Shown here piece by piece: positions 17,491 through 63,539 of a stretch of DNA of 64,000 nucleotides; positions within the stretch are counted from its first letter, which is position 1, and each line of letters opens with the position of its first letter. This DNA comes from Lama glama (lineage: Eukaryota): the NCBI GenBank assembly GCA_028534125.1, contig CM052816.1, positions 18,602,001 through 18,666,000 on the forward strand. Reading direction: 5' to 3'. The notes under the pieces are model-generated. The model was given only the letters and a program-made list of their open reading frames with translations. It was not told the DNA's origin and searched no databases. The position numbers and the translations under genes are program-made.

Positions 17491-17570
17491 GAGATATAGA
17501 TAGATAGATAGGTAGATGGATAGATAGATAGATAGATATACAGACAGATATCTATCTATCTATCTATCTC
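17491..17570. repeat. (GATA)n/(TATC)n microsatellite with polarity switch
   Basis: GATA units run to 17550, then TATC units run to 17570. Confidence 0.9.
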
Positions 17571-19989
17571 AGTTTGTCCTGCAAGAAGGGAAAGCTGGGA
17601 CACCATGTACTTGAAAGGGTGTGTATTTATCTATTCTGTTTGCATGTCAACAGCTAATTAGATTATTTATGTCTCTCAAGTGGATTTTGCATTAACCTGA
17701 ATATCTAGTTTTGGCAGGGTTTTATAATCTGCTCAATTTGCTAAGTGTCCCTCCTATCCTGGCATAGGGTAAGGAGATGTCACAGGAGAGAGTATAGGGT
17801 GGTGGGGTCTTGTGCCTATTGAGTGCTCAGGAGGACAGCCAGCCAGCAGTGTCCCTAGGGGAGGACAGAGCACAGGAGTCCCTGAGGTCCCAGGTCTCCA
17901 GCCCATTGCCCCGGGGGAGTTCATACCCAGGAGCAGCCTCATCAGACAGCAGGGATGCTGACTCACCTCTGCCCGTCAGACACTCACAGAGAATATGGAA
18001 TTCTGAATACAAGACAAAAATCCACCTGGAGCCCAGGAAGCTCCAGGCCAGGTCTTTGCTCACTGTGATGTATCAGATGTTACTCGCTTGTGCCTTAGAC
18101 TCTGTGTCTAAACTTGGTCCAACAAAAGGATTGTGGCTTATTGTCAACATGAAGTATCGTCCAACTCCTTATGGTTAAATAATGCATCAGTCATAAAAGG
18201 GCTTTTCACTTTAAAACAAAGCCTGAAATCCATTTTCTGCTATATTAAACACACACACAAACAGGCTGGATGAGTCAAATAGACAAGACCTGCAAACTGC
18301 AAACTCGTCCAATTTATACGCTATGTTTTCTTTTAAAATCCAGCAAAGAGAAGAACTGGAAAGGTTCGAGCTGGGCACCGGTTGTAGGACCCAGAGCACT
18401 TCCTGGCACTGAGGCTGGACATGGAGAGGTGTCCGTAGTTTCTGTTTCTTTGGCCCACAGAGGTGGTCAATTAGCCAAAGGTCAGCAGATCCCGCTTTTC
18501 TACAGTTTCCCCACTGAACCGCAGCAGCCGAAAAAGATGATGCATGTTGGAGCTGGAAGCATACTGGAAATTCTCTAGACCAATCCGCTCCTTTGTAAAC
18601 AAGGCAAGAGAGTTCCAGAAGGGAGCTCTGCCGAATCAGAGGTCACACAGCAAATCCACGCTGGAGTCAGGAATGAGAAGCCCGAGTTCCTGACTTCCCA
18701 GCCCACGGCACTTCTGGTGCACCGGCAGTAATACTGTGAGTTACTGTCCGTGTGCACCTGCGCTCCCTAGTGAGATCTCCATCGGCTACTTATACTGCTT
18801 AATCTTTGTGATCCCCGAGAGTCCCTTAACTGGAAGATTCCTTAGAACTTTATTTTTAAAACAACACTTGGTTAACAGCCCCACATTAAATGCTCCCAAC
18901 TTCTCTTGAAAATATCTAAGACAACACCGAATAAAGTGAAAACCTCATTCTGTGAATTGGGATCAATAGTCAAGCAAATGCCAGGCAAGACATTGAATTC
19001 AGAATGCCACTTCAGGACCATCCATTCTGGGGGCCAGGGAGCCAGCCCCTAAAACCAGGAGCCCAAGGGCTGAGCAATCCCAAACATAGGGATGCTGTCC
19101 AGAGAGCTCTCTGCCTCCAAGGGCATGCACTCCTCACGTCCTGGGAACAGTGGATGCAGAGGAGCTGGGGTCCACAGTAGCCCAGGAGGGGAGTCCTCAC
19201 AGATATGGCCTTATAGCCCCAGCCTACAGATGGCAGAACTCGGAGGCAGGCATGCCAGGGCATGATTCTTTCTACCTACTCCATTTCTTCAATGTGTCCT
19301 GACCTAGCTATACAGTGGTGAAGGAGAAGGAGGATTTCACCTAACAGATGTCCAGCAAATAAAAATCTGCTGGTCACTAGGAATAAGGCCAGGAAATTGC
19401 ACCACAGTCTATGACTCAACTACTGAGCAGGGCTTTTAACAGAAACCCCTGATGACAGACGCAGCAACAAGCATGAGCCCCCACATCCTCTGTACTGAAA
19501 ATTAATGGATCTAGAGAGATTTTCCAAGTGTTGGAGGACCAGCAGAAGGGGAACAACAACAACTAGAAAATAATCATGGAATGTCTGAAAAAAAGCACTC
19601 AGGTTTGCAAAGTTTTTAATGCAATACCAGAAAAAAATAAGTCCTGCATCAGGTTCACAGGAAACAAAGCTGATGCCATAGAAAAGTGCATCTGTAGCAT
19701 GGAGGATGGGCATGAGACTCAGAGGACACAGAGGAGAAGGGCAAAGTGATGACAAGGACAGGAAGGGAAGGACAGGTTCTTCTCTCTTCCTCATTGTCTA
19801 CCCTGCCACATCCAAGAGTTATAGAACTTCTTAAGGAAGAAACTCACACATTGGATAAACAGCAATAATGAAAGATATAATGAAAGAAAACTTTATTTAG
19901 TAAGCAAACTGAAAGGGCTCACAGTATTCTAAGTGAAAATACATTTAAAGAGGACTGTGCACAAAAGACTTAACAAAGCAAGCCTGAAG

Positions 19990-20554
19990 CTGCTGTCCTT
20001 AGACCTCCAGATGCTTGCTGGTGTCAGGGAACTCGGCTAGTAAATCGCTCCCTACACTGATATAAAACTTTACCTACATGATAAGTAAGAATGGCTCACT
20101 GTGCCTAAACTGTTTTACTAAACACCGTGGTTTAGGCTGAACACCTGTTTTCCTTCTTGGAGTCTGGAATTCTGGTACATGCTAGGGAGTCAGTACAGTC
20201 AGACCCCAATAAAATACCTGAGAACTGAGTCTTTAATAGGATTCCCTGGGCAGACACATCACACATGATGTTCCATTTTCCTCACTAGGCCAAAAGTGAG
20301 CTCTGGGTGACCCCTGATGGGAGGGAGAGAGCATAAAGAAGCCTGCGCCCAAGTTCCTCCAGACTCTTATGTAACAGGAGTGTATACTTGGCTTATAAGG
20401 GAAAAGGCACAGGCTTTTCCCTTATAAGCCAAGTATACACTCCTGTTACGTTGCTGTAATAAATCATAGCCATGAGTACACTTTTGTGGAGTTTTGTGAC
20501 TCATTTTGGTGGATTTCCAAACACAGCAATGGCTCCAGGGACCCGTACCGTGAC
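19990..20554 (+). mobile_element. ERV-L-type solo LTR (MER21/MER68-like)
   Basis: GAGTCTGGAATTCTGGTACATGCTAGG; CCCCAATAAAATACCTGAGAACTGAGTCT; TTCCTCCAGACT; TTGCTGTAATAAATCATAGCCATGAGTAC. Subfamily and 5' boundary uncertain. Confidence 0.7.
20371..20449. repeat. Perfect inverted repeat, 36-bp arms, 7-nt spacer
   Basis: 20371-20406 GTAACAGGAGTGTATACTTGGCTTATAAGGGAAAAG is the exact reverse complement of 20414-20449; loop GCACAGG. Confidence 0.97.
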
Positions 20555-21059
20555 ACAGGGATTTCACTTAAAACACATTCTAGCAAAATATACGCACTTT
20601 AAAAATAACTTACTTTTACATTATAAGCATCAAGGAAGAAAAACAAATTCTTGCAAAGAATATAAAAATTGGTTGGCTTCAGGCTTTTGCAGTAGCCTTC
20701 TATATGCGGTAGCCTTCATGGCATTTTGAAGGAAGAATGCTGGAACCCAGAAATTTTGTAGCCTTCAGAGTAAAGGCAATAGAGAATCTAAGATATGTAA
20801 GAACTCAAAGAAGACTTACACCAGTGACTGAGATCATAAACTTTAAGAATGAGAGAACACAGAATTCTGGATATGAACTTCTTTTATGGAGATCCCAAAT
20901 TCAGAGTCCAGCCAGAGTGCTTTACTGGAGAATTCTGAAACTGCAGGCTTAACCCTTCACTATTTCCCTCAGCTGTTTCTCTGCTTTTGCAGTATTACTG
21001 AGACAAAGAAATTAATTTTTTGTGCCATACCTTTCACCCCATAATTTAGGAGGAATCTT

Positions 21060-21293: not shown

Positions 21294-21661
21294 TCACATA
21301 CTCGGGCTGCTGTGGTTTAAAAATTTGTATAGAAAAAAAATCTTAATTTTGTCCACAAAAGAATAGCTGCATAGTGCAGTAAAAAAGACCACTTGCATTT
21401 CAAGAAGCTTGAGAGAATACTTTATAAAATTAACATTTTCTGTATCAAAAAAATCACAATGAGAAAACAATTACTCCCACTGAATGACTTGGGTCATTCT
21501 TTGTGTGTGTGTCTGTGTGTTTAATGTACTGGGAAAGTTAATAAACCACCCAAACGCAATTATTATCTGTCATCAAGCCCTTCTTTCAATGGTTTCTGAT
21601 ATGGATCTCTGTTCCTTCATTAAGTATGCTTTAAAAAGCAACTAGGAGAATCTCAACTATT

Positions 21662-22434
21662 CAATGGCTTAAAGACTTAAACATAAGACAAGACACTATA
21701 AACCTCTTAGAAGAAAACATAGGCAAAACATTATCTGACATAAATCTCAGCAATGTTCTCCTAGGGCGGTCTACCCAGAAATAAAGCCAAAATAAACAAA
21801 TAAGACCTAATTAAACTTACAAGCTTTTGCACAGCAAAGGAAACTCTAAGCAAAACAAAAAGACAACTTATGGAATGGGAGAAAATATTTGCAAAAGATG
21901 AGAAAGATAAGGGCTTAATTTCCAGAATATATAGACAGCTCGTACAACTTAATAAGAAAAAACAAATGACCCAATCCAAAAATGAGCAGAAGACCTAAAT
22001 AAGCAGTTCTTTGATGAAGACATACAAATGGCCAATAGGCACATTAAAAAATGTTCAATATTGCTAATTATCAGAGAAATGTAAATCAAAACTACAATGA
22101 GGTATCACCTCACACCAGTCAGAATGGCCATCATTCAAAAGTCCACAAATGATAAATGTTGGAGAGGGTGTGGAGAAAAGTGAACCCTCCTACACTGCTG
22201 GTGAGAATGTCCTTTGGTGCAGCCATTATGGAAAACAGTATGGAGATTCCTCAAAGACTAAAAGCAGGGTTACCGTATGATACAGCAATCCCACTCCTGG
22301 GCATATATCCAGAAGGAACCTTAATTCAAAAAGACACATGCACCCCAATGTTCACAGCAGCACTATTTACAATAGCCAAGACATGGAAACAACCTAAATG
22401 TCCATCGACAGATGACTGGATAAAGAAGTTGTGG

Positions 22435-22478
<44 letters not shown>

Positions 22479-23041
22479 TGTGTGTGTGTATATTTGTGTG
22501 TGTGTGTGTGTGTGTGTGTGTATACGCGTGTGTGTGTGTGTATGTATATATATACACACACAATGGACTACTTCTCATTCATGAAAAAGACTAAAATAAT
22601 GTCATCTACAGCAACATGGATGGACCTGGAGAATGTCATTCTAAGAAAGCCAGAAGTAAGCCAGAAAGAGAAAGAAAAATACCATATGATATCACTCATA
22701 TATGGAATCTAAAAAAAAAAAAAAGACGAATGAACTTATTTACAAAACAGAAACAGACTCACAGACATGGAAAACAAACTTATGGTTACCAGGGGGTAAG
22801 AGGGTGGGAAAGGATAAATTGGGAGTTCGAAATTTGCAGCTAATAACTAATATAGATAGATAGATAAACAAGAAGTTCATACTGCAGAGCACAGAGAACT
22901 ATATTCAGTATCTTGTAGTAACTTATGGTGAAAAGAATATGAAAACAAATATATATATGTTCATGTATGACTGAAGCATTGTTGCTGTACACCAGAAATT
23001 GACACAATACTGTAAACTGACTATACTTCAATTAAAAAAAA
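21662..23041 (+). mobile_element. Lineage-specific (camelid/cetartiodactyl) L1, 5'-truncated: ORF2 C-terminus plus 3' UTR
   Basis: Translates to [50 protein letters not shown] (ORF2 cysteine-rich domain with stops). The 3' UTR ends GTAAACTGACTATACTTCAATTAAAAAAAA. Confidence 0.92.
22433..22561. repeat. Compound (TA)n(TG)n...(TA)n(CA)n microsatellite inside L1
   Basis: Read directly; expanded at the L1 TGGTATATA...ACAATGG site. Confidence 0.95.
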
Positions 23042-30918: not shown

Positions 30919-31566
30919 CGAGACAGGAGGGAAGGGGGCAGGGCACAGCCACTCAAGGAATGACACAGCAGTTAGCACCACGACGGCAGAGATTCAACTC
31001 CCAGCAGGCCTTGAGGCCCAAGATGGTGGAGATGTGCCTTCAGGTGGACCTTGAGCTTCATTATACACTCACTGTAACATATTAGCGTGGTGAATGACAC
31101 ACCCACAGGCGCTATGACAGTTCCCAAGCTGACTATAAAAGGTCAGAAAGTGGGCAGCGGCCCAATTCCTGGGAATCCCTGCCCCTTCCCCAAAGTAGTT
31201 GGAATAATCCTTCCACTTGTTATCACATGAAGTAACTGAGCCCATAAAAACTAACAACCCCACACCTTGTATCCCCTCTCCCCTGTGAGTGAGACGGACC
31301 ATGCTTAATGGAATGTATCTACTTTTACTTTAATCTGAGCACCCAACCCCTACACCTCTTTGTCTTTCTCTGGCCTTGTGAGACAGCCTGCACTCTGTCT
31401 ATGGAGTACGTATCTCTCTGAATAAATCTACCTTTACTCAACCTTGGTTCACTCTTGAATTCTTTCCTGTGTGAAGCCAATGACCCACATTGGCAGGGCA
31501 TACCCGAGGGACTCAACCGAGACCTAGGACATGGCCATCCTCTTGCCCCACATTTTTCCTGTATCA
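30919..31566 (+). mobile_element. ERV1 solo LTR, MER41-like (artiodactyl type)
   Basis: Inverted termini CGAGACAGG...CCTGTATCA; imperfect 4-bp TSD GCCA/GTCA; TATAAAA, AATAAA and the MER41-like phrases CACCCACAGGCGCTATGACAG and TTGAATTCTTTCCTGTGTGAAGCCAA. Confidence 0.75.
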
Positions 31567-39547: not shown

Positions 39548-39994
39548 TAGACTATTTTAGAATACTTTTCAGATTTCAGAAAAGTTCAAAAGATAGTACA
39601 GAGAGTTCTTGTGTAACCCACATCCAATCATTAACATATTATATTAACATGGTACATTTGTTACAATTAATGAACCAATATTAATATATTACTATTGACT
39701 AAAACGTATACTTTACTCATACTTTCTTAGTTTTTACTTAATATCCTTTTAATATCTGGGAGCTTTTTAGAAATGTGGAATCTTAGCCCCTACTCAGATC
39801 TAGTTGATAAGAATCTATACTTTAAAAAGATCCCCAGGTAATTTTAAAGACATTAAAATTTGAGAAGTGTTCGTTAGAAAAAGGAACATTTTCAGAATGA
39901 AGCATGAAAAGAAAACAATAATTAAAAAATATAAAAGAGAATGTAAGAGCCAGAGTAAAGACAATGAGAAGTAGGTCTTATAATTAGAATATAA

Positions 39995-40064
39995 TTGCAT
40001 ATTATATTATATTTGCATATTATATTATGTTTGCATATTATATTACAATTGCATATTATACTAT
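39995..40064. repeat. 18-bp AT-rich minisatellite (TTGCATATTATATTAnnT), about 4 copies
   Basis: Units start at 39995, 40013, 40031 and 40049. Confidence 0.85.
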
Positions 40065-41019
40065 AATTATAAGAACTGCATCTAATTACATCATCAATAA
40101 TATAACATATTATATTATTGTATAATTGCAGTCTCCTTTGGAGACTGCAAAGAGAATGGATCGAAAGCAGTATTTTAAGAGACAATGGCTGGGAATTTTC
40201 TAAAACTGATAAAAGATATCAAGCCTTAGATTCTAGAAGCTCTAGGCACCCAAAACAGGAATGAAAGAAAATCCACACATAGGTACATCATATTAAACCT
40301 GCTGAAAACAAAGACAAAACAAATGAGAACAGACTACCTTCAATGAACTTACAGCTAACTCTAAACAGAAAAAATGGGAGCCAAGAGACATTGGAATGAT
40401 ATCCCCAGAGGGCTGAAAGATATAACTGCTAATCTAGAATTCTATACCCACAAAAAATATTCTTCAGAAATTTTGACATGATAAAATTCAGACAAATAAA
40501 AAATAAGGGATGTTTTACTTCAACTACTTTGCATTAAAGGAAATACTAAAGAGTATCTTTTAGTAGAAGGAAACTGATCCCAGATGGAAGCTTGGCGATA
40601 CGGAAAAAAACAAAAAACAATGAAGACAGAAAATATGTGAGTAAATCTGAGTAACTTCCAACTGCATAAAATAGTAATAATGTATTGTGGGTTTAAAAGA
40701 TATAAACATTAAAATACAAACAATATCAGAGAATTAAAGTACTAAATAAAACTATTACATTATCCAGAAAAGAAACAGAAACATCAGTTAAAACTGGATT
40801 TTGATAATACATGCAATAATATCTAGAATAAATATTCAAAGAATGACTACAAATCATATAAAACTTTCAACTTAATAGAGGCATAAATGTCATACAAAAA
40901 TAATTAATAAAATGGAGGCCAAGAATGGGGAGAAATAATATAGAACAGGAATTGAAAACAGAAAGCACTGTTAAGCTGGTGGATTTAATTGAAACTATCA
41001 GGTTTACATTAAGTGAACT

Positions 41020-43950: not shown

Positions 43951-46900
43951 GGCAAAATGAAGGACTTTCACACAAAAACAGACTAAAGCAAGCTGCAACT
44001 CACATACCTTCCACATCACTGAAGGTGCCTGGGAGGACAGCTAAAGTAATGAAAGTACCGGGACCACCTGGTCGAGGGTCCCTTTTTGGTTCTACGTCTG
44101 TTTCACAATTATTCCTGGGTTCCAGCTCTGAATCACTCCCTGATGGGCGGGGTGGCTTTGGACTAATCACTGCTCCTCTCTGGACCTGACATTCTTCTGT
44201 AAAACAAGAAGATTTGGCTGGAATGATTCTTCAACTTTTCTCTTGCTCTGAACTTCTACAATTTAAGTCACCTCTAAGATTTTGCCTGTGAAAATTAGTC
44301 CAGGAGCCCAGAGAGGCTGATACTTTCCTTCAATATGTAGAAAAAGATTAACCACCCTATTAAGAAAGACAGCAATGCACTATAAGGATCAGCATTTTCC
44401 ACAAAGAATGAACTCTGTTTCGATGGCAACAGGCTGTCGTGGCAAAACTGCAGGCTTCCAGAGTAGGCATGACTCAAAACCAGACAGCCAGGGAAGACCT
44501 TTAGAATAGCTGATGGAATCAAATTATGCCAATGACTTTCATAAGCCTGCTGCATTTCAGACCCAAATGCGTCAGTCCTGATGGGAAATGCACGCAGGCT
44601 GCTTTCAAGGGCAGACACAGAGGTTCTGAAGTCTGCTTAATGGCGCCCACTAGTGGAAGGTCATGTTGTGGCGATGCAGACTTCCTGGTCACAAGGTTTC
44701 CAACAGCTTCATAATGTCCAAAGTCCACCCATGCTCCCCCGGATAGGGAAACAGATGAAAGAGGAAGTGCCTTGTCCAAGGCCATCAGCTGGTTAGAGAC
44801 AGAGCTGACCTCTTGGCAGCCATTTTGGTCCACACAGAGAGGTCATTTTCTGTACAAAACACTGATGGGTCTCTATCATAAACTATCATTTAACATTTAT
44901 TTGTTGCAAGATACTGGTCACCATATTAAAAGAAAGTGCAAATTTGCTCTATCCTTAACCCAAGGAAATATAAAATATCTGGACAGAGCCTTAGGTCTTC
45001 TGATTTTGTCATCATTTAATTTAATAACTGTGCAAATAAATGTTTGGGATCCTCTTGCCCATGAAAATTTTATTAGAGTCAAGTGATTCAGAGAGAGAAA
45101 TTATTGGAAATAAGAATTATTTGACAAATACTTTGAACTTCTCATGAGTGATCAGGATAGCACATTGCAAACTCTCGAACATCTGACAAAACCTACTAAG
45201 TAGTCTCAAAATAAGTGTACGGTTATAGCACCATTTATTTACTGGATGATCAGCCAATACTTTAAACATTGTGTATTATCTGTATTCAAACAATGTTTAA
45301 GCATGTTAGGGAAATAAAAGCAGCACGTGACTCAGGTCTTCTCCCCAGAGAGGCTGCATGTCTTCACAAGGAAATGAGATATATACAATGGATATAATAT
45401 ATATGATTGTAATTCTGAAATAATTTAAATGCCCTAGAAAAGTTTTGAGGGAGTTTCGAGAAGGAACGTCAATAAATTTACAAACAGCTAGGAGAACTTC
45501 ATGAAGCAGACAGGACTCGAACTGAATCTCAAAGAGTGGGAAGGGCATTTAAGTAGAAATAAAGGAGGAAAAATTTTCAGAAAAGGCAAACTCACAAGGA
45601 TGCTTAGTGGTGGCGGAGGCAGGAAGGAATTCCTTGGAGAGAAAGGGGGTGTTCAAAAAAGTTCTGTCATGTCTCATTTCATTATGACTTTAGTTTCTCA
45701 AACCTCTCTCAGTTCCCAGCTGGCTTCTTTCTTGCCTCTCTGTCTAGGCTAGAACTCACAGTCAGCACTGCGAATCTAGCTCGTCGACCCTGTGCTTTAG
45801 TTACCTTGCAACCTCCCTCTGCTGGTCATGTCCGCTGTTCCCACTCCTGGGCAGCCAGACACTCCTGGAGAGTCACAGACACTGGCTTCCCAAGACCCTG
45901 CTGCTTGGCAACCTTTTCCTTCATTTCCTATTTATCAGCTCCCGTGGACAGTCCAAACCAGGCTTAATCTCATGCTCATGGTCATTTCCTTGCCAACCAG
46001 ACATTTTCTACTTATCTCAGAAGACTAAGGCTATTTGACATGGACTCCAACATACCTTGTCCCTACTTTAAAATGTTTCTTTATTGTCACTTATCCTTCA
46101 TGCACGTTCCAATGTTCCAGACTACCCTCTCACCTTCACACATCACTTCCTCAGGCAAGACTCTATAATAGGACCCCTGACTCCCCACATTTTCAGCCTC
46201 TTGGAGAACAGAGCACTGTCTTTGCTTTTAGGCATTCTATGTGTTAGGTGAATGAGAGACACATAAGGGAAAACCTCTATTCTATTCAATTCTGGAGCTC
46301 CTGTGATTCCAAGAGACATAGGATTAGCAATTGTCCTAGGGAGACTGTCCTTGGAGAAAGGAGAATGAATGTAGAAGAGCGTCTCAGGAGTCGAGGCCAG
46401 ACAGTCATCACTGCATGTATCTGAGCTTCAGTTTTCGCACAAATGAGGAGCAAGGACAAATGAGGTAGTAAATGCAAAAACAAAAAGGCGCTTTGTTCTC
46501 TTTCAAAGAAAGAAACACACGAAGGAATGAAGGACCCTGAATTGTTAAATGGACGATTTATGTGTAACCCTTCTAAGTGTGCCTTAGTAATGTTTTCTTT
46601 TCTTTCTCTCTGTCTTTTTTATAAGGTTTTGGGAAGAAAGGGACAAACTGTAACTTTTGATAATAAAAGGATGTTTCAAAATATTCGATAATGATCAAAA
46701 AAACCCTAAGTCATTTAGTAGGTGATTTTTGTTTCAAAAACTATGGGTCAGAAATCACTTTTCTAACTCACATTGTACTTAAATGATAAACTGGAACAGC
46801 TGATCATTTGCTATTTGCTATTGAAAATGCGGGCATCGCGGGCTAACCTGAATGCATACTTCCTTGTGGGATTCTGTTTGCTCTCACACACCACCCACTC

Positions 46901-47293
46901 TTTGCTCTTGCTTGACAGCCCTTCTGTTTCTGTATGGTTTGGCACTGGTAAAATGCAAAGAGATGTGTAGAGTGCTCATGAAATGCAAAACATGCTAATG
47001 AAACGTGGGAATTAGGGATTTTCTCCGAGACTCAAATCATTTCCATTATGTCTTATTTCTCCTCTAATGCCTCATCAAAGGTTCTAAAAAAATTGAACAG
47101 ACCATAAGGAAAGTTTTCAATGAGATTGTAATTGGGTATATAAAGATCCATAAATTAAACCAACAAAATGAAATTTCCTGAAGTCCCATGAAGGCTCCCA
47201 TGGCATGCCAAGCTTTGCTTCTGTTCTAGTTTGGCTTTTCAAGTGAAAGCACATAGTTAGGATTTTTATTCCTGAAACAAAGGTGATGGATGT

Positions 47294-47789
47294 TGTGATG
47301 GTTAATTTTATACATCAACTTGGCCAGGCCACGGTACCCAAATATTTGGTCAAAGATCACATAAATACCTCTGTGAAGGTGTTTTTCAGATTAACATTTA
47401 AATCAGTAGACTTTGAGTAAATTATTCTCAAATAACGTGGAAAGGTCTTAGTGAATCAAGTGAGGTCTTAAGAGAAAAAAGATGGAGGTCCCTCAAGGAA
47501 GAGAGAATTCTGCCCTCAGGTGGCCTTCGGACGCCAAGCTGCAACATCAACTCTGCCCTGGGTCTCCATCCTCCTGCCCACCTGCCCTGAAGATGTTGGA
47601 CTTGCCAGCCTCCACAATTGCATGCACCAATTCCTTAAAATAATACATACTCTCTCTCTTCAGAATATAGTATGAAAAGGATTTTGTGTATATCTATTCT
47701 ATACATATAAATAAATACATTGTGTTTTGTATACACATACCCACACATAGAGCCTGTTGGTGCTGTTTCTTTGGCGAACCCTGACAGAT
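47294..47789 (+). mobile_element. MLT2 (ERV-L) solo LTR
   Basis: Starts TGTGATGGTTAATTTTATACATCAACTTGGCCAGGCCACGGTACCCA; ends TTGGTGCTGTTTCTTTGGCGAACCCTGAC. Confidence 0.88.
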
Positions 47790-49489
47790 GTTTAATGTGG
47801 AGAGAAAACAACATCTCCAGCAGAAACAAACTCTCTAAATTTGCAATTACAAAAGATACTTCTGGACTAGGGCTGTTATATTTTCCCTGAAAACTTCTGT
47901 TTACCCTGCTGTCTGGCAAAAAGTTCAGTTTAGTAGAGTAATCTACTCTGCAGGTCACACTTTCTACCTGTTATGTCCAACAGGTCTGACCAAGTTCTTT
48001 TTCTTGATAGTTCCTATTCAGCAGTAACAGACAAATATTATATCTCTGATACACATCAAAAAACAATTTAGAAGTAAACTTTGAGAACAGATAAAAACAC
48101 AAGTGTATCTTGTACAAATACTTGCACAAATATTTAAATATCCAGTAATTACTTCCCTATCTTCTCTCATGGTATCCAATATGAATATTCCTGGAGCAGT
48201 TGCAGATCTCCCTAGGGTCAAATGAAATTTTAAAATTCCATCTTTATTGTTGGAAACAAGCAAATCTTGGGAGTAGCCTAGATTTATAAGGCCCTTTGAA
48301 ATGCTTCATGGGCTCAGACAACTACAGGACCATCAACACTCCTTCCACCTGCACTCACCCTTATTCTCATATCCAGGATTGACTTCTGCCATGTTCTCAG
48401 TCTCTCCTGGCTTGCTTGCCTCCCTACTCATCTTCACATTCTTATAGCGCTCAGTTTAGTGCCTTGCACAAAATATGCACTGAATGTGAGCTTCAGTCAC
48501 TGAACAGTGAAGCAGTACTGTAACTTTGAGAGTCATTCATGTTGACAGTTCCTTTTTTAGGAGGTATTAGTGGCCAGAGAAACATTTTAGTCCCCAAACA
48601 GGAGAGTATCATTTCTTTCATTGTCATAATCCACTTATTACTTAGTTTAAGATGTTCAGCTGGTCTGAGTCAATCAGAACAATGGCGCCAAGAATGTGTG
48701 TGTTGTAACCTCTGGCAACGTTCTGATGATGTCTGTGTGTGGTGCAATTTCAGGGTTCAAAGCTCAGTGGGCCAATCGCATCTGTTTACCACGGTCTGGG
48801 GTAATCTAAGTCTTTGTTTTTCTAGGTGGCCCTGGGATATTTGCTTTCTGTTGATCAAAGTACTAGCAGATGGTGAAACTGGGTGAGGAAATATGTCCAC
48901 TGTGGATCTGTAAGTATCTGAAAGACTAAGGACTGTCTATTGACTGGGCTTAGTACATTCTGGAACCCTAAAATCAAATGAACAGTCCTGACACTAAATT
49001 CCCTGGCAGGATTTTAAAGCCAAGAGACTCTCATTTGAAAATGATGGATTTAAATAAAGAGTAGGTCTTCCATGATTACACATTTGTATGCAGTGAGAAA
49101 AAGAAAAGCTTTAATGGGAAAAGTTCATGTTTAATTTAAGTCTCATAGGCTAGAAAGTGATCTTATTTTATTCTGTGTAGATGACCACCACTGTCTTTTA
49201 GCTATAAAAGTGTGCCAGACACAGAGAATCAATTGATTCACAAGAGTTCTTGAGGGAAACCTTGGGTAAAATATTAGTGGTAAGCAATGAAGGCAGATAT
49301 TATAATTTATGAGTTGTGAGGAGCAGATTCCTCATTTTTGATCCTTTGCCCTTAGTACACAGTAGATAGATGAAGGGCCACTACATTCTACATAGGTACA
49401 AGCATTTCCCCTAAGGTCATGGTTCTGATGGTCAGACACAGGCACACAACTGACTGAGCAGGATCGAATTCAATAGACACTGTCTGAAA

Positions 49490-52400
49490 AACCAGACAAG
49501 ACTATGAAATATTAAAAGAATAAAGGGAATCATGCATAAAGAAGGAAAGTGTGATAACAAAGTCTTACCAAGTAAAGAATTTCAATAAAGAATAGAAATT
49601 ATACATAAAAGAACCAATAAGAATTCTACACTTGGAAAACACAGTTGCTGAAACACAAAATTCTGTAGAGGGACTTAACAGCAGATCTGAGCAAGCAAAG
49701 GAAAAAAATCAGGAAATTTGAAGATATGTCAGTTGAGATTATCCAGTCTAAGAAACAGAAAGAAAAAAGAACAAAGAAAAATGAACAGAGGATTAGAGAC
49801 CTATTGGGAACCCTCAAGAATACCAATATATACATAACGTTAGTTTGAGAAGGGCAGTAGAGAGAGAGAGAGAGAAATGGGCAAAAGAATATTTAAAGAA
49901 ATATTAACTGAAAACTTCTCAAATTTTGATGAAAACATTAACTTACAGAATCAAGAAGTTCAACAAAATCCAGGTAAGATAAACTAAAAAACTTGAAGAT
50001 TGGACACATCATAACCAAAGACAAAGACAAAAATAGATTCTTGAAAGCAACAAGAGAGAAGGAATTCTTCACATACAAGGAGTTCTCAAAGAGGTTAACA
50101 GCTGATTTATCATCAGAAATCAGGGTGGCCAGAGGCAGTGGTATGACATAGAAGAAAAATACTAAAAGTACCAGAAAAAAAAAAGCTGCTAATAAAGAAT
50201 TCTGTATCTGGCAAAATTATCCTTCTAAAAATGAAGGCAATGTTAAGACATTCCTTGATCAACAAAAACTTAAGAGAATTTGTTGCTAGCATATCTGTTC
50301 TACAGGAAATGCTAAGTTAGTCTTTCAGGATGAAACCAAAGGACACCAGACAGTAACTTGAATCCACATGAAAAAATAAAAAGCACTAGTAAAGGTAACT
50401 ACATAGGTAAAAAAAAGCAATAAATATAAATCCATATGTTGATGAGCATACAATATATAAAGGTAATTTGTATAACAAAGCACAAAGGAGGAAGGAAAGA
50501 GTGGAGCCATACAGGGGCAAAGTTTTTGCATACTATTGCAATCATTTCAGTATTAATCTGAACTAGATTGTTGTAAGTTAAGTCATACTCACCAGGGCAA
50601 CCACTAAGAAAATAACTCAAAAATATAAAGTAAAAAAAATGACAAGGAAGTTATAAAGTGCAATAGAAAATATTTATTGAACACAAAAGAAGGCAGTAAA
50701 TAGATGAATAAAAAAGATTATTTTCAGATGACATGAACTTGTATATGGAAAATTCCAAGGAATTCTTAAAAAATTAAAACTGTAAGAGCTAATAAACTAA
50801 TTTGGCAAGATTGCAGGATACAGGATATATATACAAAAAGCAGTTGTGTTTCTATGTTAGGAATGAATAATCTGAAAATGAAATTAAGAAAACAATTTCA
50901 TTAATAACAGCATCAAAAAGAATAAAATACTTAGTAATACATTTAACAAATGAAGTACAAGATACGTACCCTGAAACTACAAAACCTGTTGAAAGAAATT
51001 AAAGACCTAAATAAATGGAAAGACATCATATGTTCAAGGATTAGAAGACTTCATAAAGCTAAGATGGCAATACTCCCCAAACTGATCCACAGGTTCAAAT
51101 CAATCTCTATCAAAATTTCATCTGCCTTTCAATTTTTCTAGAAATTATCAAGCTGATTCTAAAATTCACATGGAAATACAATGGACCTAGAATAACCAAC
51201 ATCATTTTGAAAACAATTTTAGAAGACTCATTCTTCCTGATTTCAATATTTACTACAAACCTACAATTCAAGTCTGAGTGGTACTGGCATAGGTTAGACA
51301 TATAGATCAATGAAACAGAACTGAGAGTCCAGAATAGCCAAATGAATTTTGACAAGGGTTCCAAGAAAATTAAATGGGGAAACAATAGTGTTTTTAATAA
51401 ATAATGCTGAGAAAACTGGCTATCTACATACAAAAAAGAAAAAAAAGAAGAATTTGGACCCCTTACTTCACACCATATACAAAAATGAATTCAAAATGGA
51501 TCAAAGACCTAAACGCAAGAGATAAAATTATAACACTCTTAAAATAAAATGCAGACATACATATTTATGACCTTGGATTAGACAATGGCTTCTTAGATGT
51601 GATACCTAAATCACAAGCAGATAAAGGGAAAAAGAAGATACATTTAACTTCGTTAAAACTAAAATCTTCAGTGTTTCATAGGACACTATCAAGGAAACAA
51701 AAAGACAACCCACATATGGGACAAAATATCTGCAAATCATCTAAATGACAAGGATCCTGTGTCCAGAATAAATAAAGATGTTCAACTTCCCTGGTTATGA
51801 GAGAAATTCAATTCAAATCCACAATTATATACGATTTTACATCTACTAGGATCGCTATAATTAAAAAGACAGATAATAATATGCGTTGGTGAGGATGCGG
51901 AGAAATTGAAACTCTTATACATTGCTGGTGGGAATGTAAATTGATGCAGCCACTTTGGAAAATAGTTTGACAGTTCCTCCAAAAGTTAAACACAGAGTTA
52001 CCACATGACTCAGTAGTCCCATGCCTAGGTATATACCCAAGAGAATTGAAAATATATGTCTACACAAAAACTTGTACATAAATGTTCACAGCAGCATTAT
52101 TCATAATAGTCCAAAGTGGAGATAATCCAATTGTCCATCAACTGATGAATGGATAAACAAAATGTAATATATTCATTCAATTAAATATCATTCAGTCATA
52201 AAAATAAATAAAGTACTCACTCATGTTACATATAGAAGGACCCTGAAAACATGACAGTATACTGAAGAAGCCAGACGCAAAAGATCACATATCCTATGAT
52301 TTCATTTACATGAAACATCCAAAACAGGGAAGTCCACAGAGTGAAAAAAATAGATTAACAGTTGCCAAGGGCTAGGGAAAGTAGGGAATGGGGAGTGACT

Positions 52401-52557
52401 GCTAATGTGTAAGGCTTTTCATTCTGGGGTGATGAAAATACTCTAGAATTAGACAGTGGTAATTAGTGTATGATTTTGTGAATATACTAAAAAGCACTGA
52501 ATTGCGTATTTTAAAAGGGTAAATTTTATGATATGTGAATTAAATCTCAATTTAAAA
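49490..52557 (+). mobile_element. L1MB-type LINE: ORF1, internally deleted ORF2, 3' UTR
   Basis: ORF1-like 49490-50350; RT motif LFSDDM at 50718-50735; ORF2-like LLKEIKDLNKWKDI; 3' UTR TTCTGGGGTGATGAAAAT...ATATGTGAATTAAATCTCAAT. Confidence 0.88.
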
Positions 52558-55189: not shown

Positions 55190-55277
55190 GCAGGAGGGTA
55201 TAGCTCACTGGTAGAGTGCATGCTTAGCATGCAGGAGGTCCCAGGTTCAATTCCCGGTACCTCTGTTAAAAAAAAAA
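55190..55277 (+). mobile_element. Camelid tRNA-Ala-derived SINE (Vic-1 type)
   Basis: GGAGGGTATAGCTCACTGGTAGAGTGCATGCTTAGCATGCAGGAGGTCCCAGGTTCAATTCCCGGTACCTC plus A-tail; A box 55201-55211, B box 55244-55254; TSD TTATCTA at 55183-55189 and 55278-55284. Confidence 0.85.
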
Positions 55278-59737: not shown

Positions 59738-59783
59738 ATGTTTTCCACAGAAGTCCTCCTTCTGGCTGTTCTGATTTTGCCTG
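59738..59783 (+). CDS. LECT2: LECT2 coding exon 1 (signal peptide)
   Basis: ATG...MFSTEVLLLAVLILP plus G, then donor GTAAGT; matches the LECT2 signal peptide (human MFSTKALLLAGLIST). Confidence 0.95.
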
Positions 59784-61242
59784 GTAAGTCAAAGTTACAA
59801 CTTTAGAATCTTGGCTATTTCTTAAGAACTGACTTCAAGGATAGATCTGAAAGTCATTAGTATCACAATCACAACAGAAACTTGTATATTTGGTTACCAA
59901 AAATGGAACAGGAAGGGCACACGGGGGGAAGGGTTGCTCTCAATGATTTGCACAGGAATGTTCTGTTTCTCTAATGAGAGAAACAAGAGTGGGACGGGAG
60001 GACTTTAAGAAAAGTCCATTGTAGTCTAGGACTTAATTGTAACAAAATTAGAAAGTAAAAAGTTTGTGTAAGAATCTGATTTAGAAAATCCCTAATTCAG
60101 AGGTTGGTGCGGATTAGAACAAGGGGAACACTCCCTTAACTGTCATAGCAGGAGAGGAAAATGAATAAATTAAGAAACTGTCTAATACATGCCTCATTTC
60201 CCAAGAACTATTAGTTGCCAAAGTGACTTGAAGCTTGGCTGCAAGGTATAAGACTTTTGAAATCCATCTTTTATAAGTATATTAAAGAATAAGCTTACTG
60301 GCCATATTCTGTAGCTTCTCGTCATAGCACATATATTAAAGAATAACAAAACATCCTCAAATGAAATCAACAACTGAATTAGCAGATTCTTGCTTTTGCT
60401 TTTGTTTTTGTTAGTCTGTTCTGAAGTGGAAGGATGAGTCTACTAACGCGTCTCTCTGTGAATGTTAACAATTGGAAACCTGGAAAACTGAATTCAATTG
60501 AACATTTGTTAAGTACTTACGATACTACGGAGAAGTTGTACTGAAAACAAAGGTTGCACAAAATACACTGAGAGCCAGCCCCTTCCTCCACATTTCACAG
60601 CTTCATAGTTTTTCACATAATTGTTTTACTCCCTTCCCCGCCTTCTCTTCTCACTCCATTCTAGGCTAAACTGGTTTATGTTCTTATTTCTAAGAATCTC
60701 CTCTTCCATGTTTGCAAATATGAAAGAGATTTATTTAGTGTTAAATAAACCAGTTCAGAGTTTGTTTCTCCTTTAATTCAAACATTTTCTTGAATTTGAT
60801 TACCAGGACTAGCAATAAAGAGCATATCAAAGTTCCTTTAGAACTTCTAGACTTACTTGTTTGAGATAAGCTATTTGATTATTATTATTTAACCTAAACG
60901 CAGTGGTCCCCATGCCAAGCCATGAGCAAAGAAAATTTGAAAAGCACAATCTATACCATTTATTAGTAGACAATCTGAAACAAACTACAACAATGAAGGT
61001 TAATGCTTATAAGTAAACACATTTACAAATATTTTGTATGTCAGGAAACAGATTTCTATGGCCAGGGAAAAAGTCAATTTCATATCTGAATCAGGAGTTA
61101 AAGGAAGTCTACCCCATAAACTAGAGAAAATTAGAGAAAAAGTACAGTGAAAACAATTTCTAAATCCACTGGGAGACACAAGGATAATGGAGATTGGAGG
61201 TACATGGTCAGGAAATCTGCTTCTCATGTTTCTCCTTTTTAG

Positions 61243-61339
61243 CACTGGCTGGACCATGGGCTACTATATGTGCTGGCAAGTCTTCCAATGAGATCAGGAT
61301 GTGTGACAGCCATGGCTGTGGCCAGTACATTGCTCAAAG
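61243..61339 (+). CDS. LECT2: LECT2 coding exon 2
   Basis: Acceptor TCTCCTTTTTAG; encodes (A)[31 protein letters not shown](R); donor GTAATG; phase consistent with exons 1 and 3. Confidence 0.97.
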
Positions 61340-61559
61340 GTAATGGGGTTTCACAAACAACCATAAACTCTTTTGGCTCCTAACTTCTTTGCTTATTAGC
61401 ACCCTTGCCCTAATCATCTCCCTTCTGACAGCAGGAAAATTCGGAGATGAAACCACTTACATTACTTTGTTTGGAGCAACTTTCAAGAACACTGCTCCAA
61501 CTCTGGGCTCTGAACTGGGAACAGAGCACTGAATAAGGAAAAGAGAGAGGGGAGCAAAC

Positions 61560-61740
61560 TGTTTTCCCTCTCAACATTTTCACGTGTTGACTCATCTTAC
61601 CTGGTCCTTCCAAGGTGAAAAACATTACCATTCCACTTCATAAATGAGGAACTTGAACTGGGGCACCAAAGGGTTAAGGGACCTGCTGAATACAGTTGGA
61701 GGTGGTGAAGGCTGGACAGGGAGTCAGGCTTTTAGATCCT
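61560..61740 (-). mobile_element. MIR fragment in LECT2 intron 2
   Basis: ATTACCATTCCACTTCATAAATGAGGAAC...AAAGGGTTAAGGGACCTGC. Confidence 0.55.
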
Positions 61741-62800
61741 GTTCCCATCAAACCGTAGTGTTATTGACCCAGGCTCTGGGATGGGAACTGAACACCAGAG
61801 GCTGGCCCTCAACAGGTAATTTCTTCCAGGCAATGGGGGACACTCTTGTGAATTTTCAATAATGCACAGTACCACCTTGGGAGAGCCACTTTCTGATGAA
61901 ATAGCCATGTGTCCAAGTACATCACTGATCTCCATCCTAACCACAGAACTCAGCACTCATATAGATACTACATACAAAGTAACCTCAAATACCCAGAATA
62001 GGGCAAAGAGATGGAACATATGGGAAAATGGCCTCTGAATTATCAAAATAAGGCTCAATTACTTCACACCCTAAAGTTTATGCACTTGACTTTACAATAA
62101 CTTACTGGCTCTTCACTTGGAACCTGCTCAATGTTGCTTTACACATAATTCCAACAATTTCAGTGAATCTGATTTTCCAGTAGCTTAATAGAAGGGAGAA
62201 GAGGCTGCAATGCATAGGTATCAACAGTGAGGATTGTTAGAGACAATCTCAAGAAACCTCACCATCTGGGATCATTTTGTGCTTGTGCTCCACACACTTT
62301 AATAAACACAAAAGGTATTACTCACCATATTAAAATGCTATACACAGTAAATGATGTTTATAGAGACTTCTGGATCACTGAGAGAAAAATAAGACTAGGG
62401 TAACATATGATTCTTTTATAATAGGTTCCCGTAAAAAGACAACTCTTTTCTAAGTGGTCTTGAAGGGGTCAAGGTTCAGGTAGCTACAAAATTTACTTAC
62501 ATGGATTGCCTCATTTCCCCCAAATGCCGTATAATAATAACGGCTAATAGTTTTTAAAGGCTTCCTGTGTACCAAATACTATCTTAAATGCTTTAAGTTT
62601 TACAACATGGTTATTACTACTTGCAAGGAGGGAGGGTAAAATTGGCTAAACAGAGTGAGGAAACCTGGGACATCCCAACATGTTCCAGCAGCTTCAATTT
62701 TTGATACCCTAGTCTGAGAACAGCGGGCTAACACCTTGTTCCTGGGCAATAAGGTTCCCAGGGCAGTCCCTCAGTCTGTTCGTTCTTATTTACTTCCTAG

Positions 62801-62946
62801 AAATCATAGGCTTCACCAGGGTGTGGATGTCTTGTGCTCAGATGGATCTACTGTGTATGCACCTTTCACCGGAATGATTGTGGGCCAGGAGAAACCTTTT
62901 AAAAACAAAAATGCCATCAATAATGGTGTTCGGATCTCTGGAAGAG
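62801..62946 (+). CDS. LECT2: LECT2 coding exon 3 (M23-like fold, zinc-binding HxxxD motif); exon 4 lies beyond the window
   Basis: Acceptor TTACTTCCTAG; encodes [48 protein letters not shown](G); donor GTAAGA. Confidence 0.98.
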
Positions 62947-63539
62947 GTAAGAGGTGGTGTATGTACCTGGGACACATACTGGAAATAACTGATGCTTATT
63001 TATGTAATGCATATCCTATGCATAGAAGTTTCATTCTTCCTTCAAAATGACAAAACCTAGAACATAAAGGACAAAGGTACCAAACTAAAACAGACAATGC
63101 ATTTTCAAAGATGTTCCACACTTTCCCTGAAACCATCTTTGGTATGAATACACTCCCCATCTAACTATAGTTGACTGAACGGCTTTCTTCCTGTGGCCCA
63201 TGTGGCTTAACAATCTGTGAGCGAAATCACTCTCAGCGATATTAACTGTAATAAATACTTTCATTTACCAAAACCCACACAATTCGAAAATGCTGGCATT
63301 TCTACCATAGTTGATGTGAAGTATTTTCAAACGCTCTATGTTCTAGGTAAAGTTGGGTCTCCTGGACTCCAGGCACTGGGCTTGTTGTCTGTTTGTTTTG
63401 TTCTACTGAGGGAGAACACACAGAGCAAAGTGAACGGCGGAACGGCTCCCTGAATTGTCATAAAGTGACAACATTCTGGTTACCTTAGACCAAGAACATC
63501 AGGTGCAGCCCAGAGACCCCTTGTGTTACTTTTTAGTCA

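What the first reader, a model, noticed from the sequence alone, without database searches (positions are those of the whole stretch)
20371..20449. Perfect 36-bp hairpin of pre-miRNA dimensions born inside an ancient LTR
Seen: two 36-nt arms that are exact reverse complements around a 7-nt loop (79 nt in total), inside an LTR that is otherwise heavily decayed. The right arm continues into native-looking LTR sequence (CTTTTCCC...TTGCTGTAATAAATC), so the left arm looks like a recent inverted copy. Established: template switching can create such hairpins in one step, Microprocessor favours ~35-bp stems, and LTRs supply promoter and polyA signals (AATAAA follows at 20458). Inference: a candidate lineage-specific de novo miRNA/endo-siRNA precursor or cruciform fragile site. 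The loop is shorter than is optimal for Drosha.
Basis: partly seen in the sequence, partly recalled or inferred. Interest (0 to 1): 0.7.

Follow-up and report, generated by a model that had tools for sequence, protein, structure and literature searches.

The report
Copy-slip hairpin in old retroviral repeat
A real, perfectly paired 79-base hairpin sits inside an old retrovirus-derived repeat far from any gene; it most likely arose in one step by a well-known DNA-copying slip, and nothing found here shows that it is made into a microRNA.

Summary
In detail: two 36-nt arms (20371-20406, 20414-20449) are exact reverse complements around a 7-nt loop, far beyond chance. The hairpin lies in a ~600-bp LTR-like element (19956-20557; MER21-like by recall only), 39 kb upstream of LECT2. 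It is probably not an assembly error: 11 of 24 listed runs hold 0.98-0.99 of the sampled words, whereas about 0.94-0.95 would be expected without the hairpin. Best explanation: one template-switch mutation wrote an inverted copy of the right arm, probably with the loop, into the LTR. No orthologue or second LTR copy could be obtained, so the ancestral state is untested. The miRNA idea has no positive support. The four RNA-like runs hold no more than their genome-wide background. There is no Rfam match at threshold, and 0 of 87 alpaca novel miRNAs match. These tests are weak for small RNAs. In primates only 57 of 6,054 such hairpins are annotated miRNAs. One lead: five runs at 0.94-0.95 may lack the hairpin, or carry two SNPs. 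Verdict: an ordinary instance of a known process.

The parts
19956..20557 (+). Solo-LTR-like element, 602 bp including the extra arm (MER21C/MER21-like by recall; not tested against a consensus)
   Evidence: Starts TG, ends CA; flanks AGGAC / GGGAT agree at 3 of 5 positions, both differences transitions; TATAAA 20061, AATAAA 20208 and 20458. Ends were picked by eye with the recalled family anatomy.
20369..20406 (+). Left arm (36 perfect pairs from 20371, plus 2 outer pairs); inferred to be the new, inverted copy
   Evidence: Pyrimidine fraction 13/38, against 19/28 in the flank before it and 25/38 in the right arm: weak support that this arm is the intruder.
20407..20413 (+). 7-nt loop GCACAGG; possibly inverted together with the left arm (event type 3-1-2-4 / 1-3-4-2)
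   Evidence: 2/7 pyrimidines on +. Inversion is an inference from composition and from recall of the family; untested.
20414..20451 (+). Right arm; inferred native LTR sequence that served as template
   Evidence: runs on into the AATAAA at 20458. Native status rests on composition and recall.
20458..20463 (+). AATAAA, candidate LTR polyadenylation signal, starting 9 nt after the perfect stem
59738..62948 (+). Nearest gene identified in the window: first exons of LECT2, 39 kb downstream (context only)
   Evidence: Exon in 62718-63047 matches LECT2 at E 1e-25 and Peptidase_M23; start codon read from the sequence.

Best explanation
A single short-range template switch during DNA replication or repair, some time after the LTR inserted, copied ~36-45 nt of the LTR from the opposite strand and wrote it in inverted orientation just upstream of its source. 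This made a perfect hairpin in one step. Most likely it was an inter-strand switch that inverted the 7-nt spacer as well (type 3-1-2-4 / 1-3-4-2); a fold-back followed by a later loop flip gives the same product. The result is most likely a neutral scar in intergenic repeat DNA that is rarely transcribed and not a functional miRNA. Shown: the hairpin, its local-only symmetry, and its presence in independent sequencing runs (by word share). Inferred: which arm is new, the loop inversion, the mechanism, and neutrality.
For: Perfect symmetry stops abruptly after 38 nt. No 12-mer of the arm occurs elsewhere in the window, so the only donor seen is the partner arm. No target-site duplication flanks the hairpin and it is not a tandem or simple repeat. 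Left arm plus loop (15/45 pyrimidines) interrupt a pyrimidine-rich tract. If both arms had decayed 10-20% with the LTR, a perfect 36-bp match has probability 5e-4 to 1e-7 (decay range assumed). The two event types that make such hairpins account for 31% and 23% of 794 human-chimp template-switch events (PMC5453318). 6,054 miRNA-sized ones arose in primate genic DNA alone and 57 (0.9%) are in miRBase; 99 of 111 template-switch miRNAs are intragenic (PMC10710096), while this site is 39 kb from the only gene found. RNA-like runs hold 0.14-0.34 of the words, while their contig letters amount to 0.41-0.48 of the DNA runs' size.
Against: The defining test, an ancestral or orthologous allele without the left arm, could not be run: no genome is held, the read-laying run returned no data, and 0 of 252 motif-matched loci were homologous. 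Which arm is native rests on weak composition data and on recall. The geometry fits Microprocessor well on the + strand (UG at -14/-13 with a cut 13 nt into the stem, 22-nt products reaching the loop). 8 of the 12 intergenic template-switch miRNAs lie within 1 kb of a transposon promoter, as this one may. A 31-mer search cannot see small RNAs: the 79-nt hairpin alone is only 3.7% of the words, under the 5% listing limit.
Confidence: 0.8

Rival explanations
1. Same origin, but the hairpin is a working proto-miRNA or endo-siRNA source: it lies between the LTR's promoter region and its AATAAA, so a short LTR transcript (germline, early embryo or placenta) would carry it to Drosha/Dicer.
For: 36-38-bp stem, near the preferred 35 bp (PMC10710096). 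Basal UG in the right register on +, owed to the single non-Watson-Crick letter at 20370. AATAAA 9 nt downstream. A MER21C solo LTR drives GPR1-AS after fertilization in primates (PMC12129452 passages). The two runs on record as RNA that hold part of the stretch are labelled reproductive system.
Against: Loop of 7 nt against a preference for >=10. No CNNC at +16 to +18 in any of 5 cut registers on either strand; apical UGU only on the - strand, which lacks the basal UG; no basal mismatch (motifs recalled). RNA shares at or below background. No Rfam family at its gathering score among 16 weak matches. 0 of 87 alpaca skin novel miRNAs match. Base rate 0.9% even in genic DNA. This LTR is ~600 bp against 938 bp for MER21C, so it may lack promoter parts.
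Confidence: 0.06
2. The LTR subfamily, or this copy at insertion, already had an imperfect inverted repeat here, and a later template switch or gene conversion only made it perfect (classic quasi-palindrome correction).
For: This is the classic Ripley-type mechanism described in PMC5453318. No consensus could be examined.
Against: Pairing beyond the 38-nt tract is at chance level (4 Watson-Crick pairs in the next 22 positions), with no decayed outer arms. My recollection of the family shows no second arm (recall only).
Confidence: 0.07
3. A small palindromic DNA-transposon derivative (MITE; MADE1-like in size, 80 nt with ~37-bp terminal repeats, recalled) inserted into the LTR.
For: Size and geometry resemble such elements (recall).
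Against: No TA or other duplicated target site at either boundary. No second copy in the window. No Rfam match to a MITE-derived miRNA family at threshold.
Confidence: 0.03
4. Assembly or library fold-back artefact.
For: Reads were not seen directly. 9 of the 16 high-share runs are flagged as a possible source of this DNA. Five runs sit at 0.94-0.95, the share expected without the hairpin.
Against: 10 runs hold 0.99 and one 0.98, under five organism labels and four studies; X5 and X6 (0.99, one study) are not flagged as a source. Missing at most 1-2 of 130 words if 60-67 of 1,171 31-mers were artefactual has probability 0.004-0.03 under random sampling. Loop orientation alone is invisible to 31-mers and remains unverified.
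Confidence: 0.02
5. The hairpin matters as a cruciform-forming fragile site.
For: Longer, more identical arms with shorter spacers raise recombinogenicity (PMC7999016 passages). DNA fold -42.9 kcal/mol.
Against: The human fragile palindromes in the passages read are 200-600 bp and >90% AT, or Alu-length arms; this one has 36-bp arms of 37-39% GC and a GC-rich 7-nt spacer. It persists intact across five organism labels.
Confidence: 0.03

Closest known systems
Template-switch mutations, four-point model, types 3-2-1-4 and 3-1-2-4 (Loytynoja & Goldman 2017, PMC5453318; parts 1-3 of 6 read)
   Same: [quoted passage not shown]
   Different: Those calls rest on an aligned ancestral sequence, which is missing here; that study masked repeats, whereas this case is inside an LTR.
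Template-switch-born hairpins and miRNAs in primates and mice (Monttinen, Frilander & Loytynoja 2023, PMC10710096; parts 1-4 of 6 read)
   Same: Stem within their 30-55-base miRNA-like class; transposon promoter nearby, as for 8 of their 12 intergenic cases.
   Different: No expression or processing evidence; intergenic (89% of theirs are intragenic); no post-event stem mismatches except one basal wobble. It resembles their ~6,000 unannotated hairpins more than the 57 annotated ones.
MER21C / MER21B solo LTRs (PMC12129452, passages read; assignment of this element is from recall)
   Same: Ancient LTR with TG...CA ends and poly(A) signal; MER21C is Boreoeutherian-wide per that paper, and one copy acts as an embryonic promoter.
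   Different: This copy is ~600 bp against 938 bp; no alignment to a consensus was possible; no promoter activity shown.
MADE1-type MITE and MITE-derived miRNAs (recalled)
   Same: ~80-nt near-perfect palindrome with a 6-7-nt loop.
   Different: No TA target duplication, no further copies in the window, no Rfam match.

Membership tests
Template-switch mutation (four-point model) | Reverse-complement copy of nearby sequence, >=14-15 nt | tested here: met
   36 perfect pairs, 38 with one wobble
Template-switch mutation (four-point model) | Parent/orthologous sequence lacks the hairpin, and the switch alignment beats the forward alignment | not testable with these tools
   No genome, no laid reads, 0 of 252 loci homologous, no match in plasmids or phages
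Template-switch mutation (four-point model) | Not a simple or tandem repeat | tested here: met
   None of the 9 TRF rows overlaps the site
Template-switch mutation, type 3-1-2-4 | Spacer inverted relative to the ancestor | tested here: inconclusive
   Only composition (2/7 pyrimidines amid pyrimidine-rich native-looking tracts) plus recall; a loop flip is invisible to 31-mers
Canonical animal miRNA gene | Stem of about 35 bp | tested here: met
   36-38 bp
Canonical animal miRNA gene | Unstructured apical loop >=10 nt | tested here: not met
   7 nt, partly paired in the fold; 11 nt would lie between predicted 22-nt products at the best register
Canonical animal miRNA gene | Microprocessor motifs (basal UG, apical UGU/GUG, CNNC, basal mismatch; recalled; enhancing, not obligatory) | tested here: inconclusive
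   + strand: UG only; - strand: apical UGUG only; CNNC in 0 of 5 registers per strand; no mismatch
Canonical animal miRNA gene | Locus is transcribed | tested here: inconclusive
Canonical animal miRNA gene | Precise ~22-nt reads from both arms with 2-nt overhangs | not testable with these tools
   No small-RNA reads; proxy: 0 of 87 alpaca skin novel miRNAs; five camel papers' supplements uninformative
Known miRNA families (Rfam 15) | Score at or above the family's gathering threshold | tested here: not met
   0 of 16 matches reach it; best 40.5 bits against 245
MER21C-type solo LTR | TG...CA ends, target-site duplication, poly(A) signal | tested here: inconclusive
   TG 19956, CA 20557, flanks 3/5 alike, AATAAA 20458; ends chosen by eye
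MER21C-type solo LTR | Alignment to the Dfam/Repbase consensus | not testable with these tools
   No repeat library; motif searches in papers found nothing
MADE1-type MITE | TA target-site duplication | tested here: not met
   Boundaries of the 36- and 38-bp versions show no duplicated site
MADE1-type MITE | Many dispersed copies | tested here: inconclusive
   None in 64 kb; genome not held

The most novel reading that the evidence does not exclude
One copying slip placed a Drosha-sized hairpin between the promoter region and the poly(A) signal of a solo LTR, creating a self-contained, lineage-specific miRNA cassette expressed in germline or early embryo. If the five runs at 0.94-0.95 lack the hairpin, carriers and non-carriers still coexist, so the birth of a miRNA gene could be studied before and after in living animals.
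Probability: 0.05. Interest if true: 0.6.

Novelty: new member of a known kind. Interest (0 to 1): 0.2.

Why it matters
As it stands it matters little: thousands of such hairpins arise per mammalian lineage, and an earlier, unchecked note reports a 46-bp one elsewhere in this same genome. It would matter if small-RNA data showed processing, or if it proved to segregate. PMC10710096 says repeat-overlapping events were excluded from its polymorphism data, which prevented closer analysis of transposon loci. A clean case inside an LTR, with promoter and poly(A) signal already in place, would test that paper's claim that a promoter is the limiting step for new miRNA genes, in a non-primate, non-rodent lineage.

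Tried and rejected
Own-genome search: no genome held. Laying four runs on the region returned no data, so neither alleles nor RNA coverage were seen. Looking for other copies of the LTR as host DNA in microbial collections: 0 matches to a 24-letter motif in metagenomes. No match in plasmids or phages. Arm motifs in paper full texts: 0 papers; LTR motifs: 0 papers. Supplements: the alpaca list has sequences, 0 of 87 match, and its file 4 is a scan and was not searched. In PMC12467276, PMC12292283 and PMC6454748 the novel-miRNA rows shown carry names and counts but no sequences, and the first two files were cut when stored; PMC9933125 and PMC10718809 gave no hit even for 'novel'. These five are uninformative. 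The bacterial promoter scan does not apply to a mammal. Rfam miRNA hits are generic stem matches. Earlier-findings look-ups by place and sequence were empty. One paper search was swamped by Camellia.

Full report
Observation. The window holds two 36-nt arms, 20371-20406 and 20414-20449, that are exact reverse complements around the loop GCACAGG. Outward the symmetry runs two more positions (a T.G wobble at 20370/20450 that looks like CpG decay, then an A-T pair) and then falls to chance, with 4 Watson-Crick pairs in the next 22 positions. The RNA fold is -71.4 kcal/mol, z = -11.7, with 0 of 200 shuffles as stable. Chance predicts ~1e-15 such repeats per window. It is the longest of the 15 perfect hairpins with arms >=10 that my scan listed; the next is a 21-bp microsatellite one.

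Setting. The window is mammalian: an exon near 62.8 kb matches LECT2 (E 1e-25; Peptidase_M23), whose start codon reads at 59738, 39 kb from the hairpin. I found no other gene among the 51 frames of >=100 codons, read by eye apart from two scanned; I did not view 44000-52500 as sequence. The hairpin sits in a 602-bp element with TG...CA ends (19956-20557), flanks alike at 3 of 5 letters, TATAAA at 20061 and AATAAA at 20208 and 20458. I recognise it from memory as MER21C-like; no tool could test that. PMC12129452 (passages) gives MER21C as 938 bp and Boreoeutherian, so this copy would be shortened.

Is it real? Of 24 listed runs, 16 DNA-like runs hold 0.94-0.99 of 130 sampled 31-mers of 19800-21000, under five organism labels and seven studies; 9 of the 16 are flagged as a possible source. 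Ten hold 0.99 and one 0.98; X5 and X6 (0.99, one study) are not flagged. Without the left arm, 60-67 of 1,171 31-mers would vanish, giving 0.943-0.949; losing at most 1-2 sampled words then has probability 0.004-0.03 if sampling is random. So an artefact is unlikely. Two cautions follow. All 37 loop-spanning 31-mers lie inside the palindrome, so the loop's orientation is not checked by this. And five runs (X12-X16, the same organism label as X5/X6) hold 0.94-0.95, which is what absence of the hairpin would give but also what two SNPs would give (0.947). The list is ranked by share, so it is no allele count. The read-laying run returned no data, so this lead is open.

How it arose. The symmetry is local and sharply bounded. 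No 12-mer of the arm occurs elsewhere in the window, and no target duplication flanks it; it is not a tandem repeat. Arms that had decayed 10-20% along with the LTR (assumed range) would match perfectly with probability 5e-4 to 1e-7, so the match was made or renewed after insertion. That is what short template switches do. In PMC5453318 (parts 1-3 of 6 read), type 3-2-1-4 gives an inverted repeat (31% of 794 events) and type 3-1-2-4 an inverted repeat with an inverted spacer (23%), mostly by inter-strand switching. Here the flank before the hairpin (19/28 pyrimidines) and the right arm (25/38) are pyrimidine-rich, while left arm (13/38) and loop (2/7) are not. This weakly suggests that left arm and loop together are the inverted piece, which agrees with my recollection of the family. 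The test that defines such events, an ancestral allele, could not be had: no genome, 0 of 252 motif-matched loci homologous, nothing in plasmids or phages. Age is loosely bounded: zero differences in 72 sites allow up to 19-42 Myr at recalled rates, and palindromes can be re-homogenised.

Is it a miRNA? For: the stem length suits Microprocessor (35 bp preferred, PMC10710096). On the + strand a cut 13 nt into the stem puts UG at -14/-13 and gives 22-nt products at 20384-20405 and 20417-20438. An LTR promoter and AATAAA may bracket it (inference from LTR anatomy), and a MER21C copy is an embryonic promoter in primates. Against: the loop is 7 nt (>=10 preferred). CNNC is absent in all 5 registers on both strands, the apical UGU is only on the - strand, and there is no basal mismatch (motif definitions recalled). 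None of 16 Rfam matches reaches its threshold. Only four RNA-like runs hold any of the stretch (0.34, 0.21, 0.19, 0.14), and their contig letters equal 0.41-0.48 of the DNA runs' size, so these shares are at or below background. That search cannot see 22-nt RNAs, and the hairpin alone (3.7% of words) is under its 5% limit. No arm motif occurs in the paper library's full texts or among 87 alpaca skin novel miRNAs; five camel papers' supplements were uninformative, and unseen or cut supplements may bear on this. The prior is low: 57 of 6,054 (0.9%) miRNA-sized template-switch hairpins in primate genic DNA are in miRBase, and 99 of 111 such miRNAs are intragenic, although 8 of the 12 intergenic ones lie within 1 kb of a transposon promoter (PMC10710096, parts 1-4 of 6 read). 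I put a processed small RNA at about 6%.

Fragile site? Longer arms and shorter spacers raise risk, but the human examples in the passages read are 200-600-bp AT-rich palindromes or Alu-length arms (PMC7999016). Perfect arms in human reach 140 bp (PMC13155455 passages). This 36-bp, ~38% GC stem persists across five organism labels. There is no evidence of fragility.

Verdict. A real, single-copy-looking hairpin, best explained (0.8) as a neutral template-switch scar in an old LTR: a new instance of a documented process. An earlier, unchecked note describes a comparable 46-bp hairpin in this genome (e1-7801956); it is a lead, not support. The two open questions worth a cheap look are whether the hairpin segregates (X12-X16) and whether germline small-RNA libraries show stacks on its arms.

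Noticed in passing
window 17519-17568: A second perfect hairpin 2.8 kb upstream: a (GATA)n tract followed, after an 8-nt spacer, by a 21-bp inverted copy; looks like a fold-back template switch in a microsatellite.
   Followed up: no
window 39963-40150: AT-rich quasi-palindrome (49-nt arms, 73% complementary) around an 18-bp tandem array, followed by two small perfect 11-bp hairpins.
   Followed up: no
window 59738-62948: First exons of LECT2 on the + strand.
   Followed up: partly
window ~21660-23040: 3' end of a young-looking LINE-1 on + (by recall), with a long (TG)n array inserted at 22447-22545; no Pfam hit for its short frame.
   Followed up: no
window ~55190-55275: tRNA-derived SINE with A tail; its head resembles entries 36, 38, 59 and 80 of the alpaca 'novel miRNA' list (by eye), which suggests those entries are tRNA/SINE fragments.
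   Followed up: no
window ~31050-31560: Another LTR-like element (AATAAA near 31422; family not identified), unrelated by blastn to the one holding the hairpin.
   Followed up: no
runs X12-X16 versus X5-X6 on window 19800-21000: Same organism label, shares 0.94-0.95 against 0.99: either two SNPs or absence of the hairpin.
   Followed up: partly
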